Shown here in pieces: positions 6,983 through 55,754 of a stretch of 64,000 nt of DNA (position 1 is the first letter of the stretch; each line of letters opens with the position of its first letter). A model generated the notes under the pieces. The model was not told where the DNA came from, ran no database searches, and was given only the letters and a program-made list of their open reading frames with translations. The position numbers and the translations under genes were made by a program. The DNA comes from a candidate division FCPU426 bacterium (GTDB lineage: Bacteria > Oederibacteriota > Muellerivitia > Muellerivitales > Muellerivitaceae), in contig CAVYSE010000028.1 in assembly GCA_963771075.1 (NCBI GenBank), positions 224,001 to 288,000 on the forward strand, written 5' to 3'.

Positions 6983-7022
6983 CTGGGATTGCTCCGTGGC
7001 GAAATTTACCCCTCGCAATGAC
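6983..7022 (-). repeat. Solo shortened copy of the GTCATTGCGAGG...GCAATCxCAG palindromic repeat family
   Basis: Reverse complement reads GTCATTGCGAGGggtaaatttcgccacggaGCAATCCCAG, sharing both ends with the 52-kb repeats. Confidence 0.7.
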
Positions 7023-48560: not shown

Positions 48561-48614
48561 GGGATGACCTCAGGAAGTAAAGAGAAAGGCATCATAATCA
48601 ATTAGGGGGATCAT

Positions 48615-48706
48615 AAAAAAGGGGGCCGGGAAGCCGGCCCCCTCTCTCCTTCTACGGTTCCGCGCCCTCAGGGCTGGGCTGGAACTTGAGCTTTCACCTT
48701 TTTAAC
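48615..48706 (-). ncRNA. Candidate small RNA or attenuating leader (about 90 nt)
   Basis: TTGACG-N17-GAGAAT promoter (48741-48713); internal hairpin GTTCC..GCCC-tga-GGGC..GGAAC; terminator GGGGGCCGG/CCGGCCCCC followed by T6. Confidence 0.5.
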
Positions 48707-48807: not shown

Positions 48808-51800
48808 TCAAGGCGCCTGGGTTTTATTCGCGGAGCTTGCCGCGGGCGGGAGATCCTCTTCCCCGGACAACCTGCGGATCCAGAGACGGAAATCATCCAC
48901 GTACCCAAAGACTGACGGCACGATGATGAGGGTAAGGACCAAAGAGCTGATGAGCCCGCCCTCCATCGCGATACCCATGGATTGCCGGAACTTGCCCACC
49001 TCGGTCAGGGCCAGGGCCACCGGCAGCATGCCGGCGATCAGGGCGAAGGTGGTCATAAGGATGGGCCGCAAACGCACCCGACCAGCGGCTTTCAGGGCCT
49101 CGTCCCGGGGCATGCCCTTTCGCATCATCTGCAGGGTGTAATCGACCAACAGGATGGAATTTTTCGTGACCAAGCCCATGAGCATGACAATGGAGATCAT
49201 GCTGAAGATGCTGAGGGTGACATAGGGAATGAAAATCCCGCCCACGAAAAGCGCGGCCAGGGCGCCCACCATGGCCAGGGGGATGGACATCATGATGGCC
49301 AGGGGATAAATGGGCGATTCATAAAGGCTGGCGAGGATCATGAAGGTGAAGAGCGTGGAAAGCCCCACGGCGATGAGCATGTTGACGATGAGGTCGTGAA
49401 AATCCTCCGCCTGGCCCACGAACTCGTAGGAGACCCCCTTGGGCATCTGCATCCCGTCCAATATCCGCTTTCCCTGTTTCAACACATTGCCTAAACTGCC
49501 GCCCGTGGCCAATTGCCCGGTGATCTGCACATAGCGAGCCCTGTCCTCCCGGTCGATCTCCGAAGGCCCCTGGGTCGTGACGGGTTGGGCGATCTCCGAA
49601 AGGCGGATCAGGTTGCCGTTCTGGTTGGGGACCAGCACCTTCGCGAATTCGGTCTGCAAATCGCGCTGGTCTTCCTGGAGCCGCACGCGGATGAAATATT
49701 CCAACCCGCCCTGCCTGAACTTGGCGGGCGTGGCCCCCTCCACCTGGGTTCGAAGCTCGTTCCCCGCCTCGATCCCGGAGACCCCCAGGCTCTGGAGCTT
49801 CCTCGGGTCCAGCTTGACCTGGAACTCGGGTTTTCCGCCGTTATAGGTGGATTGCACGTCGGCCAGCCCCTGGAAATGCCCTTGAATCTTTTCCGCCACC
49901 TGCTGGGCGAAGGGCGCCAGCACCGAATAATCCTCGCCGATCAGGTTCAGGGTGAAGGGCGCCTGGGCCATGACCGGATCGTAATCGGAAACCTGCGGGT
50001 TCAATTCGTCCCGGTAGGGTTCCAGTTCCTTGCGGAGAATTTCCTTGAATCGGCGGTCCCGATCTTGCGTTGGCTGGAGGGCTTCATCAGGATAAGAGGT
50101 TGGACTTGTTGGACCCCTGGTTGGCGCCGGTGGCGTCCGAGCCGCCGATGGTATCCGCCACCAGGTCCACCTCCGGGTGTTTCCGCACCAGGGCCTCGAT
50201 CTTCAGGGTCTTGTCCCGCATGGTTTCCAGGTCGGTGGCCGGGTCCGCTTTCAAGTACACGGCGAATTGGCCCACGTCCGCGGCGGGCTTGAAGTCGACC
50301 TTCATGAAGGGCAAGAGCCCCAGGCTCAAGAGGAAGATGACCGCGGCTGAGAGAACGATCCAGAAGCGGTGCTTCAGGCACCAACCGATGACCCCCACAT
50401 AACCTTCCTGAAGACTGTCCTGGAACCGACCGAATCCCTGGAGGAAGGGGGCGCAGAAATGGTCGATGGTGTCGATCAGGCTGTAGCCCTTCCCCCTTTT
50501 CTTGCCCCAGAAGGCCGACAGGATGGGGCCCATGACCATGGCCTCGAAAAGGGAGATGGCCATGGCGAAACAAACCGTCAGGCCGAACTGCCGGAAGAAC
50601 TGCCCCACCAGCCCGCTCAAGAACGAGATGGGCATGAACACCGCGATGACCACCGAGGAGGTGGCCACGACCGCCAGGCCCACTTCCAGGGCGGCCCCGA
50701 CGGCAGCCTTCTTGGGCTCTTCCCCCTTCTCGATATGCCGCCAGATGTTTTCCCGCACCACGATGGCGTCGTCGATCAATAGCCCCACCGCCAAGGACAG
50801 GGCCAGCAGGGTCATCATGTTCAGGGTGAACCCCACCCCGTTCATGAGGAAGAAGGCCCCGAAGAGCGAGACGGGCAGGGCCGTGATGGTAATGAGCGTC
50901 GAGCGGAAACTGCCGAGAAAGAAGAAAACCACAAGGATGGTGAGGAAAACGCCCTGGAGGATGGTGAATTTGACGTCCTCCAGGTTCATGCGGATATACC
51001 AGGCCATGTCCTGGAACATGACCAGGTGCGGGTTCCCCGGCTCGCCCTTCAGGTTCTCGTTGATCTTATCGATGCGTTTGATGAGCCCGTCCACCACGGC
51101 CACCGTGTTGGCCTTGGACTGCTTCACCACCTGGATCACCAGGGTCGGTTGTCCGTTGATGTAGCTGTACCCCTGCGCGTCCTCAACCGTATCCACGACC
51201 TGGCCCAATTGTTCCACGGGCACGGAGACATCCGACCCCATGAAATTGACCGAGGTCTGCTTCAGGCGGTCCAGGTCGTCATATTGGCCGACGGACCGGA
51301 ACAGCAGGTCCTTACCCGCCACCTGGATCGTCCCCACCGGCACGTTCATGCCGTTCAAGCCGATGCGGGTGGCCACCTGGGAAGCGCTGATGCGATATCG
51401 GTTGAGCTTGTTCCGGTCCAGTTGGACCTGGATCTCCCGCTTGCGCCCGCCCTGGATGCTGATAACCCCCACCCCCTGCACCTGCGCCAGCTGGGGCTTG
51501 ATGACCTGGTCGGCCAGGTCATAGGCCTGGGCGGGGGGCAAGGTGGAGGAAAGGCTCAGCTGGGCGATGGGGAGGGCGGATGGATCAAGCCGCCGCACGA
51601 TGGGCTCGTCGATATCCTTGGGCAGGGTCGACCGCGCGAAGGAAAGGTGGTCCTTCACCTGCTGTTCCGAATCCTTCACGTCGGCGTCCATGTTGAACTG
51701 GACCATGACCACCGAGTAGCCCTCCTGGTTGACGGAGGTGACCTTCTTCACGCCCTGGATGGTGGAAAACTCGTCCTCCAGGGGCTTGGAGACCTGGGTC

Positions 51801-51979
51801 TCGATCTCCTCGGGGGAGGCGCCCTGGTAGGGGGTGGTCACGATGACGAAGGGAAAGCTCACGTCGGGGAAGAGGTCCACCGCCATGATGTTGTAGGCCA
51901 TGATGCCCAGGACGAGGATGAGGATGACCACGCAGCTCATGAAGACGGGGCGGTCGATGGCGAGTTTGGGCAAATTCAA
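48808..51979 (-). CDS. AcrB/RND efflux permease, copy 2 (two one-base deletions at about 50093 and 50049)
   Basis: MNLPKLAIDRPVF, GLLIDDAIVVRENI, GLVTKNSILLVD, RLRPILMTT; fragments are collinear with the paralogue. Confidence 0.92.
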
Positions 51980-51996: not shown

Positions 51997-52131
51997 GTCA
52001 TTGCGAGGTCCAGCCCCAATCGGGGCGATTTGGGCCGTCGCAATCTCAGTTAATGATTTTAAAAAACCACAACTAAACCTGAGATTCCCACGTCGCCGTT
52101 CGGCCCTATCGGGCCGGCTCCTCGGAATGAC
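51997..52131. repeat. Inverted doublet of 53-bp palindromic repeats (R1 51997-52049 forward, R2 52079-52131 reverse)
   Basis: Both read GTCATT(G/C)CGAGG-N27-CGT(C/G)G(C/G)AATCTCAG. Confidence 0.9.
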
Positions 52132-52168
52132 AACTAAAACATCTTTATCACAGCAATTCGACTTTGGT

Positions 52169-52593
52169 GTCATTGCGAGGAGTTGCACCGATAGGCACGT
52201 TTAGCGACGTCGCAATCTCAGTTGCCGTTCTCTTGTTACAATTCTTCATACAAATCCTTCCACGAATCATTCATATTCCGAATAAGTTCAATCTTCCTGA
52301 TTCTGGAATAATTTTTGATCTGTTTTTCTCTTTCAATGGCAACCGAAATACTGTCTGAAACTTCGTAATAAACCAATTTCATTAAATTGAACCTTTTTGA
52401 AAAACCTTCCACTAATTTTTCTTTATGTTCGTATATTCTTCGTTTCAGGTCGTTAGTGACCCCGGTGTAAAGGGTGGTGTTGTTTTTGTTGGTCAGTATG
52501 TAAATGTACCCATGGTTAGTCCAACTCCAAGGCAAAAAACCTGAGATTGCGACGTCGCCAACCATGCCTAGCGGCATGGCTCCTCGCAATGAC
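52169..52593. mobile_element. GIY-YIG nuclease cassette bounded by inverted 53-bp repeats R3 (52169-52221) and R4 (52541-52593)
   Basis: Two copies of the repeat in inverted orientation flank an AT-rich nuclease gene inside a GC-rich RND operon. Confidence 0.75.
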
Positions 52594-52595
52594 AT
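52236..52595 (-). CDS. Stand-alone GIY-YIG nuclease (UPF0213/YhbQ-like); start uncertain
   Basis: GYIYILTNKNNTTLYTGVTNDLKRRIYEHK..LVYYE..AIEREKQIK; in-frame ATG 52595 follows AAGGAG. Confidence 0.9.
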   Translation of the reverse strand: MSLRGAMPLGMVGDVAISGFLPWSWTNHGYIYILTNKNNTTLYTGVTNDLKRRIYEHKEKLVEGFSKRFNLMKLVYYEVSDSISVAIEREKQIKNYSRIRKIELIRNMNDSWKDLYEEL

Positions 52596-52626: not shown

Positions 52627-55600
52627 TTAGGCGTTCAAGGACGAAAACATCCGGGTCAGCCAAAGCCTGAAGTCGTCCACATAGCCGAAGACCGAAGGCA
52701 CGATGACCAGCGTCAACAAAAGCGAACTGATCAAGCCCCCCTCGATGGCCACGCCCATGGACTGGCGGAATTTTCCCACTTCGGTCAAGGCCAGGGCCAC
52801 CGGCAGCATGCCCGCGATGAGGGCGAAGGTGGTCATGAGGATGGGGCGCAGGCGAACCTTGCCCGCCATCTTGAGCGCCTCGTCCCTGGGATGCCCTTTG
52901 CGCATCATCTGTAGGGTGTAGTCCACCAGCAGGATTGAATTTTTGGTGACGAGACCCAACAACATGATGAGGGCGACCATGCTGAAGATGTTCAGGCTCA
53001 GGGTGGGCACGATCATCTGCCCGAGGAAAAGGGCGAAGAAGGCCCCGACGATGGCCAAGGGGATGGCCAGCATGATGGTAAAGGGGATGATGGGCGACTC
53101 GTAAAGGCTGGCGAGGATCATGAAGGTGAAAAGAACCGCCAGGCCCACAGCCTCCAGCATGCTGACCATGAGGTCCTGCAGGTCCTGCGCCTGGCCCACG
53201 AACTCATAGGTGCACCCCCGGGGGCAGTTGGATGCCGTTCATGATCTCCTTGGCCTTGTCGATGGCCCCGCCTAAGGCCCCGCCGGGGGCGATCTGCGCC
53301 GAGATCATGATGTAGCGGGCGCGGTCCTGCCGGTCGATCCGGGCGGGCCCCTCGGTGGTGACCGGATGGGAAATATCGGACAAGGCGCACCATGTTGTGG
53401 TTTTGGTTGGGCACGAGGGTCGAGGCGTATTGCTTTTCCAGGTTCCTCTGGTCCTCCTGCAGGCGCACGCGAATGTCGTAGTCCTGGCCGTGCTGGCGAA
53501 GTTTCGCCGCGACCAACCCTTCCACCTGGGTGCGCAGTTCCATCCCCGCGTCCACGCCCGAAACCCCGAGGGCCTTCATGCGCTCCGGGTCCAAAACCGC
53601 CTGGAACTCGGGCTTGCCACCGTCGTAGGTCGATTGCACGTCGGCCAGATCCTTCACCGACCGGATCTTTTCGGCCACTTGGTCGGCGAAAGGCACCAGG
53701 GTGGCGTAATCGTCGCCCACCAGGTTCAGGTTAAAAGGCGCCTGGTCGCCGAACGCGCTGGCTTCCGCCACCTGGGGCTTCAGCGAGTCCTTGAAGGGTT
53801 CCAGTTCTTGGCGAACCTTGGACATCATCTGGGAAGTGGTGATATCCCGATCCTGATAGGGCTTGAGCCGGATATAAAGCCGGCCCTTGTTGACGCCCTG
53901 CGCCGCGCCCGAACCGTCCGTTCCCCCGATCGAACCGGATAAAACCACGACCTCGGGGTGCTTTTGGATCACCTGGGCCACCTGTTCGGTCATCGTTTTC
54001 ATCTCGTCCAGGGAGGTTCCCGGCGCGGACTTCAACAGCACCACGAACTCGCCCACGTCGGCCGTGGGAAGGAAGGTGAACTTGATGTGCGGCCCCAGGA
54101 CCAGCATGGAAAAGAAAAAGAGGAAGATTGCGGAACCGATCACCTTTTTCCGGTTCCTCAGGCACCAATCGATCAGGATCGCGTAACGGCCCTCCAGAAA
54201 ATCCTGGAAGCGGCTGAAGGCCTTGAGGATGGGCGTAATCACCGGGATCTCGCCCTCGCCCTTCACCGTTTTCTTGGCCCAATAGGCCGAGAGGAGCGGG
54301 CCCATGACCATGGCCTCAAAGAGGGAGATCCCCATGGCGAAACAAACCGTCATGCCGAATTCCCTGAAGAACTGGCCCACGATGCCCTTGAGGAAGGCGA
54401 TGGGCAAAAAGACCGCGATGATGACCGAGGAGGTCGCCACAACCGCCAGGGCCACTTCCAGCGCCCCCTTCACGGCTGCTTCCTTGGGGGGCATGCCTTC
54501 CTCGATATGGCGCCAGATGTTTTCCCGCACGACGATGGCGTCGTCGATCAAAAGCCCCACGGCCAAGGACAAGGCCAGAAGGGTCATGACATTCAGGGTG
54601 TAACCCTGGCTGTTCATGAGGAAAAAAGCGCCCAAAAGGGATACGGGCAGGGACGTGATGGTAATCAGGGTGGAGCGGAAGGAACCCAGGAACAATAGGA
54701 CCACCAAAATGGTGAGTAGGATCCCCTCGATGATGGTGTATTTGACGTCGGTGAGATTCATGCGCACTGGCCGGGCCATTTCCTGGATCACGGAAAGCCC
54801 GGGCGAACCCGTTTTCGTCTTCAGGAATTCATTGATCTTGTCCATCTGCTTCAAGGCCCCGTCCACTACCGCCACGGTATTGGCCTTGGACTGTTTATAG
54901 ACCTGAAGCACCAGGGTGGGCTTTCCGTTGAGGAAGCTGTAACTGTCGGCGTCCGCCACCGTGTCGACCACGTTTCCCAGCTTGTCCACCGTCACCGAAA
55001 CGTCGGATCCGAAAAAATTGACCGGTGTGTTCTTGATGCGATCCAGGTCGTTATATTCCCCCACGGACCGGAACAAAAGCTCACGCGCGCCCAGGTCCAC
55101 CTTCCCCACGGGCACGTTCATGCCGTTCAGGCCGATCTTGTCCGCCACCTGGCCCGCGCTGATGCGGTAACGGTTGAGTTGGTCGCGGTCCAACTGGACC
55201 TGGATCTCCCGCTTGTGCCCCCCGATGATGTTGACCACCCCCACTCCCGGCACTTCCGCCAGGCGGGGTTTGACATATTGGTCCGCCAGGTCGTAGATAT
55301 CGGCCGCGGTTAATCCCGGGGCCTGGAGGCTGAGGATGGCGACGGCCTGGTCGGTGGGATCGAACCGCCGGATGATGGGCTCATCCACGCCCTTGGGCAG
55401 CTGGGGCCGCACGAAGGCCACCCGGTCGCGCACCTGCTGTTCGGCGTCCTTGGCGTCGGTCTCCAGGGTGAACTGGACCCAGATGACCGCGAACCCTTCC
55501 TGGTTGGAGGAGGAGACCTTTTTCACGCCCTGGAGGGAGCTGAGCTCGTCCTCCATGGGCTTGGAGATCTGGGTCTCGATCTCTTCCGGGCTGGCTCCCT

Positions 55601-55754
55601 GGTAGGGTACCGTCACGAACACGAAAGGAAAGCTGACGTCCGGGAAGAGGTCCACCCCCAGGGAGTTATAGCCCATGATGCCAAGTACCATGATGAGGAT
55701 GACCACACAGCTCATGAAGACGGGGCGCTCGATGGCAAGTTTGGGTAAGTTCAC
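52627..55754 (-). CDS. AcrB/RND efflux permease, copy 1 (two one-base insertions at about 53384 and 53213)
   Basis: MNLPKLAIERPVF, IDDAIVVRENI, GLVTKNSILLVD, RLRPILMTT; the shifted frame restores GPARIDRQDRARYI. Confidence 0.92.

What the first reader, a model, noticed from the sequence alone, without database searches (positions are those of the whole stretch)
51997..52595. GIY-YIG nuclease bracketed by four structure-conserved 53-bp palindromes: candidate REP/REPIN-like mobile system without a transposase
Seen: four repeats of exactly 53 bp in alternating orientation. R1 (51997-52049) and R2 (52079-52131) form an empty doublet; R3 (52169-52221) and R4 (52541-52593) enclose an AT-rich GIY-YIG gene with an intact-looking YIY/YTG, Arg and Glu set. 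Each repeat parses as 12-4-5-4-5-4-5-14 nt. The outer stem covaries (ATTGC/GCAAT in R1, R3, R4; ATTCC/GGAAT in R2). The inner 5-bp tetraloop stem differs in sequence yet pairs (GCCCC/GGGGC, GGCCC/GGGCC, ATGCC/GGCAT; partly broken in R3). The cassette interrupts a GC-rich RND-RND operon. Known: RAYT (HUH) genes flanked by inverted REPs plus empty REPIN doublets have this layout, and GTC-tagged palindromic repeats are widespread. Inference: the nuclease recognises hairpin shape and mobilises or maintains the repeats. I know of no demonstrated mechanism for this.
Basis: partly seen in the sequence, partly recalled or inferred. Interest (0 to 1): 0.82.

Follow-up and report, generated by a model that had tools for sequence, protein, structure and literature searches.

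The report
Ssn nuclease cassette with long hairpins
A tiny nuclease gene sits between its own inverted hairpin repeats. It likely belongs to the Ssn single-strand-DNA nuclease system described in 2025, so it is ordinary in kind, although close relatives carry the same unit at a different gene junction or lack it, which suggests it moves.

Summary
The four 53-bp repeats and the GIY-YIG gene are real. The pairing is not new. It matches the Ssn nuclease / NTS-SRM hairpin system (Chenal 2025, PMC11893778), which this scan has met on other DNA before, and the repeats are CGTC-tagged REPs (PMC3733652).

Evidence: 76 of 79 homologues elsewhere have such a hairpin within about 370 bp (shuffles 0.7; distant GIY-YIG genes 0 of 6). 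The protein hits genes flanked by the exact published NTS and keeps the published Tyr-Tyr-Glu spacing.

What this locus adds:
(1) A longer hairpin with covarying stems, which the published SRM pattern misses.
(2) The orthologous repeat-gene-repeat unit lies at RND2|RND1 in two congeners and at OEP|RND2 in a third, and is absent from both junctions in three other relatives.
(3) Eleven gene-less doublets in this genome ride inside unrelated MITEs with 8-bp target duplications, a rival way for the repeats to spread.

Corrections: the gene's native ATG is out of frame (10-nt deletion, backed by independent contigs), and published data show that Ssn reads sequence as well as shape. That the nuclease itself drives mobility is untested.

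The parts
51997..52049 (+). R1, 53-nt GTC-tagged hairpin repeat; left arm of the gene-less doublet
52079..52131 (-). R2, 53-nt repeat with a compensatory change in the outer stem; right arm of the doublet. G000 has 172 bp more than G003 here (two extra repeats plus spacers); G003 has one R3-like repeat
   Evidence: contigs of X1 and X2 cover this stretch in two overlapping pieces
52132..52168 (.). 37-nt AT-rich spacer between the GTC tags of R2 and R3
52169..52221 (+). R3, downstream repeat of the cassette, tag pointing outward; inner stem has two broken pairs and is fully paired in the G002 and G003 orthologues
52236..52513 (-). Ssn-type single-domain GIY-YIG gene. The native-position ATG at 52513 is out of frame. 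In-frame upstream starts exist at 52535 (TTG), 52565, 52577, 52589 (TTG, 9 nt after a Shine-Dalgarno-like AGGAG) and 52595
52541..52593 (-). R4, upstream repeat of the cassette, tag pointing outward; one base from G003's copy and two from G002's
48808..51979 (-). RND1 (AcrB family), host gene downstream of the cassette; split in the window by probable assembly errors
52627..55754 (-). RND2 (AcrB family), host gene upstream of the cassette; split in the window by probable assembly errors
6985..7022 (-). Short solitary member of the same repeat family (same tag and outer stem, no inner stem)

Best explanation
This is a repeat-gene-repeat cassette plus an adjoining gene-less repeat doublet, whose small GIY-YIG protein is likely an Ssn nuclease that would bind its GTC-tagged hairpin when it is single-stranded and cut a few bases 5' of the tag. 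Shown here: the anatomy, the family-wide coupling of gene and hairpin, outward-pointing tags, conserved stems with a free inner arm, and different positions of the orthologous unit in congeners. Taken from the paper on homologues: ssDNA-only, strand-specific binding and cleavage that needs the three bases before the stem and the C after it. Inferred: cuts outside both tags would free the unit from exposed ssDNA (replication fork or incoming DNA), and host repair would occasionally place it at another gene junction, gene-less doublets being deletion derivatives. I put this Ssn-driven relocation step at about 0.4 and membership of the Ssn system at about 0.9. This copy may be recently disabled at its start, or may be made as an N-terminally extended protein from an upstream codon.
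For: Coupling: 76 of 79 homologue loci from many phyla have a GTCAT-stem-C hairpin within about 370 bp, 56 on both sides; shuffled flanks give 0.7. Density is 227 per 47 kb near the gene against 45 per 205 kb beyond 1 kb; the nearest upstream repeat points outward in 52 of 63 loci, the nearest downstream one in 56 of 69 (all 80 loci). Distant GIY-YIG genes: 0 of 6. Link to the published system: in 3 of the 5 NTS-richest of 251 genomes the window protein has a hit (E 9e-23 or better, 45-48% identity, 88-89 of 92 residues), each with an exact NTS within 300 bp. Y8, Y19 and E66 of the intact orthologue have the spacing of the published Y6, Y17, E64 and are kept in 106, 106 and 107 of 107 proteins; median length 95 aa. 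The model (pLDDT 92.5) matches GIY-YIG folds, UPF0213 and Slx1. GTC and the C after the stem are invariant in 10 of 10 aligned repeats. Movement.
Against: I could not compare the protein directly with N. meningitidis SsnA or score it against CDD cd10448. The published SRM pattern matches none of the four repeats and only 4 of 80 homologue loci. No target duplication or outer terminal repeat is visible around the window cassette, and relatives are too diverged (about 80-87%) to fix the ends. Repeats persist in near-complete genomes where no Ssn-type gene was found with this query (G005 25 matches, G012 27). Eleven doublets here sit in other MITEs. From established knowledge, GIY-YIG enzymes hydrolyse DNA and are not known to rejoin it. 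The native start of this copy is out of frame.
Confidence: 0.8

Rival explanations
1. The nuclease only cuts, for example restricting incoming ssDNA as in Neisseria. Repeats and cassettes are spread by other agents: DDE-type MITEs, other transposases or recombination between repeats.
For: Seven of 11 paired copies of one MITE and 4 of 4 of a second carry a doublet, with exact or near-exact 8-bp target duplications. The genome has 20 Y1 transposase matches and 1 IS1595-family match. In vivo, SsnA lowers integration of NTS-bearing DNA (PMC11893778). Repeats persist without a detected gene.
Against: The cassettes in G000, G002 and G003 show no MITE ends or duplications. None of the 21 transposase matches has the diagnostic repeat start within 1.2 kb; one Y1 element is itself inserted into a repeat-bearing MITE. 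Both repeats moved together with the gene, plus about 6 shared bases outside the upstream tag.
Confidence: 0.45
2. An autonomous mobile element of a new chemistry: the GIY-YIG protein is itself the transposase, using a conserved tyrosine as a covalent nucleophile like HUH enzymes, and the doublets are its non-autonomous partners.
For: The layout is that of RAYT/REP elements (PMC3733652; noted in PMC11893778). Two tyrosines are near-invariant. Ssn cassettes sit at 6 or more distinct junctions that are empty in G000, and the orthologous unit occupies two junctions about 3.3 kb apart. CGTC REPs had no dedicated transposase in the 2013 survey.
Against: One copy per genome in the genus. The fold is a plain GIY-YIG domain. 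In the text I read, the paper reports Mg-dependent cleavage and no strand transfer. Tyrosines are conserved across hydrolytic GIY-YIG enzymes (recalled).
Confidence: 0.12
3. The repeats act mainly as RNA hairpins (stabilisers or terminators) at gene junctions, and the gene is a passenger.
For: By a rough ORF scan, 37 of 39 copies lie outside long ORFs. One copy is nearly unchanged in three species. REPs are often transcribed (PMC3733652).
Against: It does not explain the coupling across phyla with different repeat sequences, the 0 of 6 control or the outward polarity. The published SsnA binds ssDNA and not RNA.
Confidence: 0.05

Closest known systems
Ssn nucleases (SsnA, CDD cd10448) with NTS / Ssn-related motifs (Chenal et al. 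2025, PMC11893778)
   Same: Single-domain GIY-YIG protein of about 95 aa with the same Tyr-Tyr-Glu spacing; gene bracketed by oriented hairpins that start with a GTC tag and an AT-led stem and have a C after the stem; further copies across the genome.
   Different: The repeat is 53 nt, with an interrupted outer stem and a long covarying inner arm (NTS is 28 nt), and the published SRM pattern misses it. About 29 copies rather than hundreds. The native start of this copy is frameshifted. Relocation among congeners is visible here; the paper only hypothesised mobility.
CGTC-tagged REP superfamily (Di Nocera et al. 2013, PMC3733652)
   Same: CGTC or TGTC tag (R1; R2-R4), stem opening with an A-T pair, short unpaired tail, intergenic position, mostly dimers.
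   Different: Published stems are 8-9 bp with 4-5 nt loops; here the loop is replaced by a roughly 35-nt substructure. The consensus figure was not available, so no family number is assigned.
RAYT/TnpA(REP) with GTAG REPs and REPINs (PMC3733652 passages; other papers seen as search listings only)
   Same: Single-copy enzyme gene between inverted tagged hairpins, with gene-less doublets elsewhere. It works like this in layout.
   Different: The enzyme is GIY-YIG, not HUH/Y1, and the tag is GTC, not GTAG. Not a member.

Membership tests
Ssn / SRM | Small single-domain GIY-YIG protein (about 94 aa, under 150) | tested here: met
   One Pfam domain; intact orthologues 95 aa; GIY-YIG fold
Ssn / SRM | Catalytic Y6, Y17, E64 of SsnA | tested here: met
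   Y8, Y19, E66 at the same spacing (11 and 58 residues), invariant in A3; matched by spacing, not by direct alignment to SsnA
Ssn / SRM | Hit to N. meningitidis SsnA at E<1e-10 over 75%, or to CDD cd10448 | not testable with these tools
   Neither was available from a tool. Proxy met: E 9e-23 or better, over 95% of the query covered, to three genes next to an exact NTS
Ssn / SRM | Gene flanked by oriented GTC-tagged hairpins with a C after the stem | tested here: met
   R3 and R4; 76 of 79 homologues
Ssn / SRM | Flanking repeat matches the published degenerate SRM search pattern | tested here: not met
   0 of 4 repeats; 4 of 80 homologue loci; 25 genome matches against 18 in the reversed genome. 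The pattern is a search aid of at most 35 nt built from 29 genomes, and in the paper it flanks only 71% of ssnA homologues
Ssn / SRM | Site-specific cleavage of ssDNA only, 5' of the hairpin | not testable with these tools
   Needs purified protein
CGTC-tagged REP | Unpaired CGTC/TGTC tag, stem starting with AT, short tail | tested here: met
CGTC-tagged REP | 8-9 bp stem with 4-5 nt loop | tested here: not met
   5-7 bp outer stem continued by an interrupted 3+5 bp arm; a long variant, not one of the four published families as described in the text
RAYT / REPIN | HUH (Y1) transposase flanked by the repeats | tested here: not met
   The gene is GIY-YIG; none of 20 Y1 matches in the genome is bracketed by these repeats
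RAYT / REPIN | GTAG tag | tested here: not met
   The tag is GTC
Classical IS / MITE | Target-site duplication and a DDE transposase | tested here: not met
   None at the window cassette; the separate MITEs elsewhere in the genome do show 8-bp duplications

The most novel reading that the evidence does not exclude
Ssn cassettes are true mobile elements. A 95-residue GIY-YIG ssDNA nuclease, cutting just outside its two outward-facing hairpins, relocates its own gene and the gene-less doublets without any transposase. That would make it the missing mobiliser of CGTC REPs, and the two positions of one orthologous cassette in this efflux operon would record such a local hop.
Probability: 0.35. Interest if true: 0.7.

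Novelty: new member of a known kind. Interest (0 to 1): 0.3.

Why it matters
The system is published, so the locus itself is not a discovery. It matters modestly in three ways. It shows that the Ssn family pairs with longer, branched hairpins that the published pattern misses (4 of 80 loci by that pattern against 76 of 80 by a tag-and-stem rule), so the family and its range of cutting specificities are underestimated. It offers a natural filled / empty / moved series in one operon for the open question of whether Ssn units are mobile. And it shows a competing dispersal route, carriage inside MITEs, that any mobility test must control for.

Tried and rejected
Rfam: no family at the repeats. NCBIfam: no model over its cut-off. 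PDB by sequence: only UPF0213 proteins, no Ssn structure.

My first hairpin detector demanded 6 of 7 pairs and found only 47 of 80 loci; I replaced it with a 5-bp-stem-plus-C rule. For the 23 relatives the strict rule gave 13; allowing the first pair to mismatch, a relaxation chosen after reading the flanks, gave 22.

Covariance model R1 had a structure string out of register by two columns. The counts, and the correlation of repeat number with Ssn presence computed from them (p 0.03), rest on it, kin are not independent, and I do not use them. With the corrected model R2 the counts overlap (family genomes with an Ssn-type gene 1-104, n=10; without 0-40, n=6).

Idea that the G002 position arose by crossing-over between the RND paralogues: rejected, its RND gene is RND2-like from the first 200 bases. 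Idea that the out-of-frame start is an assembly slip like the RND frameshifts: rejected. Clustering of repeat types on the protein tree (quick tree, 96 columns, most forks open) is not taken as co-evolution. The single-sequence fold (pLDDT 65) gave no significant match. No RNA holder was listed, so expression is unchecked. The COG2827 literature search was uninformative.

Full report
Observation. The four repeats lie at 51997-52049 (+), 52079-52131 (-), 52169-52221 (+) and 52541-52593 (-), each 53 nt. Read from the GTC tag they align without gaps. A structure with a 5-bp outer stem, two isolated pairs, a 3-bp middle stem and a 5-bp inner stem closing a four-base loop pairs in 98% of 150 cells over ten copies from three genomes, with compensatory change at 6 of 15 pairs. 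No shuffle of 500 reached the covariation score, and slid controls pair at 26-40%. On 31 distinct copies fitted to the model the figure is 97.6% (this count leans towards the model). The gene between R3 and R4 is a single GIY-YIG domain at 34% GC between RND genes of 60-61%. The corrected covariance model finds 29 matches in the 4.4-Mb genome. The genome has three GIY-YIG matches, and only this one is of this type.

Two corrections. First, the orthologues in G002 and G003 start with an ATG 26-27 bases after the upstream repeat. The ATG at that position here (52513) leads into a stop after six codons, through a 10-nt deletion relative to G003. Contigs from runs X1 and X4 cross the spot with no gap, whereas four indels that split the RND genes are corrected in the contigs. 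X1 may be the source sample; X4 belongs to another study. The start lesion is therefore real and the RND splits are probably assembly errors. The G000 branch still shows purifying selection (10 synonymous and 5 non-synonymous changes in 88 codons, omega about 0.12, none at invariant sites), and in-frame starts exist upstream. So the copy is either recently disabled or made with an N-terminal extension. Second, the cassette sits between the RND genes and interrupts neither.

Coupling of gene and repeat. With a rule of tag, 5-bp stem and following C, 76 of the other 79 have a hairpin within about 370 bp and 56 have one on both sides, against 0.7 and 0 in shuffled flanks. Density is about 22-fold higher within 300 bp than beyond 1 kb, and the nearest repeats mostly point outward as here (52 of 63 upstream, 56 of 69 downstream). 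The repeat sequences differ between lineages while tag, stem opening and tail persist. Among relatives, 13 of 23 Ssn-type loci pass the strict rule, and 22 of 23 once the first pair may mismatch (a relaxation chosen afterwards). None of 6 distant GIY-YIG loci passes either rule; this control is small.

What is known. Di Nocera et al. (PMC3733652; abstract, passages and section 6 read) define CGTC-tagged REPs and report no dedicated transposase for them. Chenal et al. (PMC11893778; abstract, introduction, results, discussion, four methods sections and Supplementary Data 5 read; figures and the other supplements not seen) show that the 94-aa cd10448 protein SsnA binds and cuts its 28-nt NTS hairpin only as ssDNA and only on one strand, a few bases upstream. 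The C after the stem matters most for binding and the three bases before it for cutting. The loop is dispensable, but structure-preserving stem changes abolish activity. SsnA lowers transformation by NTS-bearing DNA. The authors note that the NTS-ssnA-NTS layout resembles an insertion sequence and RAYT/REP systems, and offer mobility as a hypothesis only. The paper appeared in my own search in the same turn as earlier notes of this scan that named it. Searches for later work or for a mobility test listed no other relevant paper, within a library that lacks most subscription journals.

Membership. A direct comparison with SsnA or cd10448 was not possible. As a proxy I searched 251 genomes of one order for the exact NTS (46 hold it) and took the five richest. 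The window protein hits a gene in three of them at E 9e-23 or better over nearly its full length, and each of these has an exact NTS within 300 bp. The published catalytic residues Y6, Y17 and E64 have counterparts at identical spacing, conserved in 106-107 of 107 proteins. An alignment-based model (pLDDT 92.5) matches UPF0213 and Slx1 GIY-YIG domains. The published SRM pattern fails: 0 of 4 repeats and 4 of 80 loci. It cannot match a 53-nt repeat, so I read this as a longer repeat variant rather than a different system.

Does it move? The proteins of G000, G002 and G003 are 80-83% identical and form a clade (SH-aLRT 98 in a quick, poorly resolved tree), and their flanking repeats are recognisably R4 and R3 in each. 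In G000 and G003 the unit lies at RND2|RND1; in G002 it lies at OEP|RND2. G001, G014 and G024 lack it at both junctions, and G018 lacks it at the one junction seen. G002's RND gene is RND2-like from its start, so crossing-over between the paralogues does not explain its position. Of 16 Ssn-type loci in relatives, 7 (6 distinct sites) have both flanking genes adjacent in G000 with neither gene nor repeat between them; the other 9 were not syntenic or could not be placed. Gene-less doublets turn over too. Two G000 doublets are absent at the orthologous sites of G002 and G003, while one single copy is shared by three species and absent in G001. The extra 172 bp at R1-R2 is either a gain in G000 or a loss in G003 by recombination between direct repeats; the data do not decide.

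Against Ssn as the mover. No target duplication or outer terminal repeat is visible at the window cassette, and about 80-87% identity between relatives hides the exact ends. Eleven doublets in this genome sit inside two MITE families with 8-bp target duplications, and four copies of one family carry no such repeat, so carriage by other elements demonstrably spreads part of the population. Near-complete relatives hold 25-27 repeats with no Ssn-type gene found by this query. None of the genome's 20 Y1 matches or its IS1595 match is bracketed by the repeat, so no cognate HUH enzyme is in view either. GIY-YIG enzymes are hydrolases (established knowledge), so any Ssn-driven relocation would need host repair to rejoin the ends.

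Verdict. A real feature and a new member of the published Ssn / hairpin-repeat system, with a long repeat variant and useful comparative evidence that the cassette changes position. The biochemical mechanism is borrowed from homologues; the mobilising role remains an inference at about 0.35-0.4. Interest 0.3.

Noticed in passing
G000 C1:52558-52942, C1:118335-118719, C3:118097-118437, C5:146547-146930, C6:95462-95835, C7:49270-49518, C11:52043-52428; repeat-free copies at C3:200202, C3:338158, C11:467348, C28:55163: MITE family of 160-390 bp with terminal inverted repeats and 8-bp target duplications; 7 of 11 paired copies carry an Ssn-type doublet. The ends and duplication length recall IS1595-family elements (recalled). 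The one IS1595 match in the genome lacks these ends.
   Followed up: partly
G000 C1:54457-54768, C1:58262-58575, C3:108738-109061, C3:119355-119638: A second MITE family (284-324 bp, near-exact 8-bp duplications); all four paired copies carry a doublet.
   Followed up: partly
G000 C1:54460-54750, C21:16285-16615, C3:108755-109060, C3:119355-119620, C24:116625-117015, C5:6770-7060: Other hairpin repeats are nested inside the arms and loops of the Ssn-type repeat, up to three deep, so these hairpins appear to be insertion targets for further small elements.
   Followed up: no
G000 C3:342571, C3:235646, C3:103928, C18:221080, C2:48927, C21:77113, C27:43422 and others: About 15 Y1 transposase genes of roughly 320 aa. 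The seven whose flanks I printed are bounded by their own inverted repeats, most starting with a GGGG-led motif like the TIRYT elements of PMC3733652, and some are near-identical at different sites.
   Followed up: no
window 48600-48690 (- strand): Conserved non-coding element after RND1 that ends in a terminator-like hairpin; also present in G001, G002 and G003. No Rfam match at gathering level.
   Followed up: partly
window 49881, 50048, 53209, 53386: Small indels that split both RND genes are corrected in short-read contigs of two or three runs, so the assembly has indel errors here.
   Followed up: yes
L096:5540-8720 (G002): G002 has one RND gene with an RND2-like body and an RND1-like tail, consistent with loss of RND1 by recombination between the paralogues.
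   Followed up: partly
L098:8969-10281 (G001): Two extra small genes occupy the OEP|RND2 junction in G001, the junction that holds the Ssn cassette in G002.
   Followed up: no
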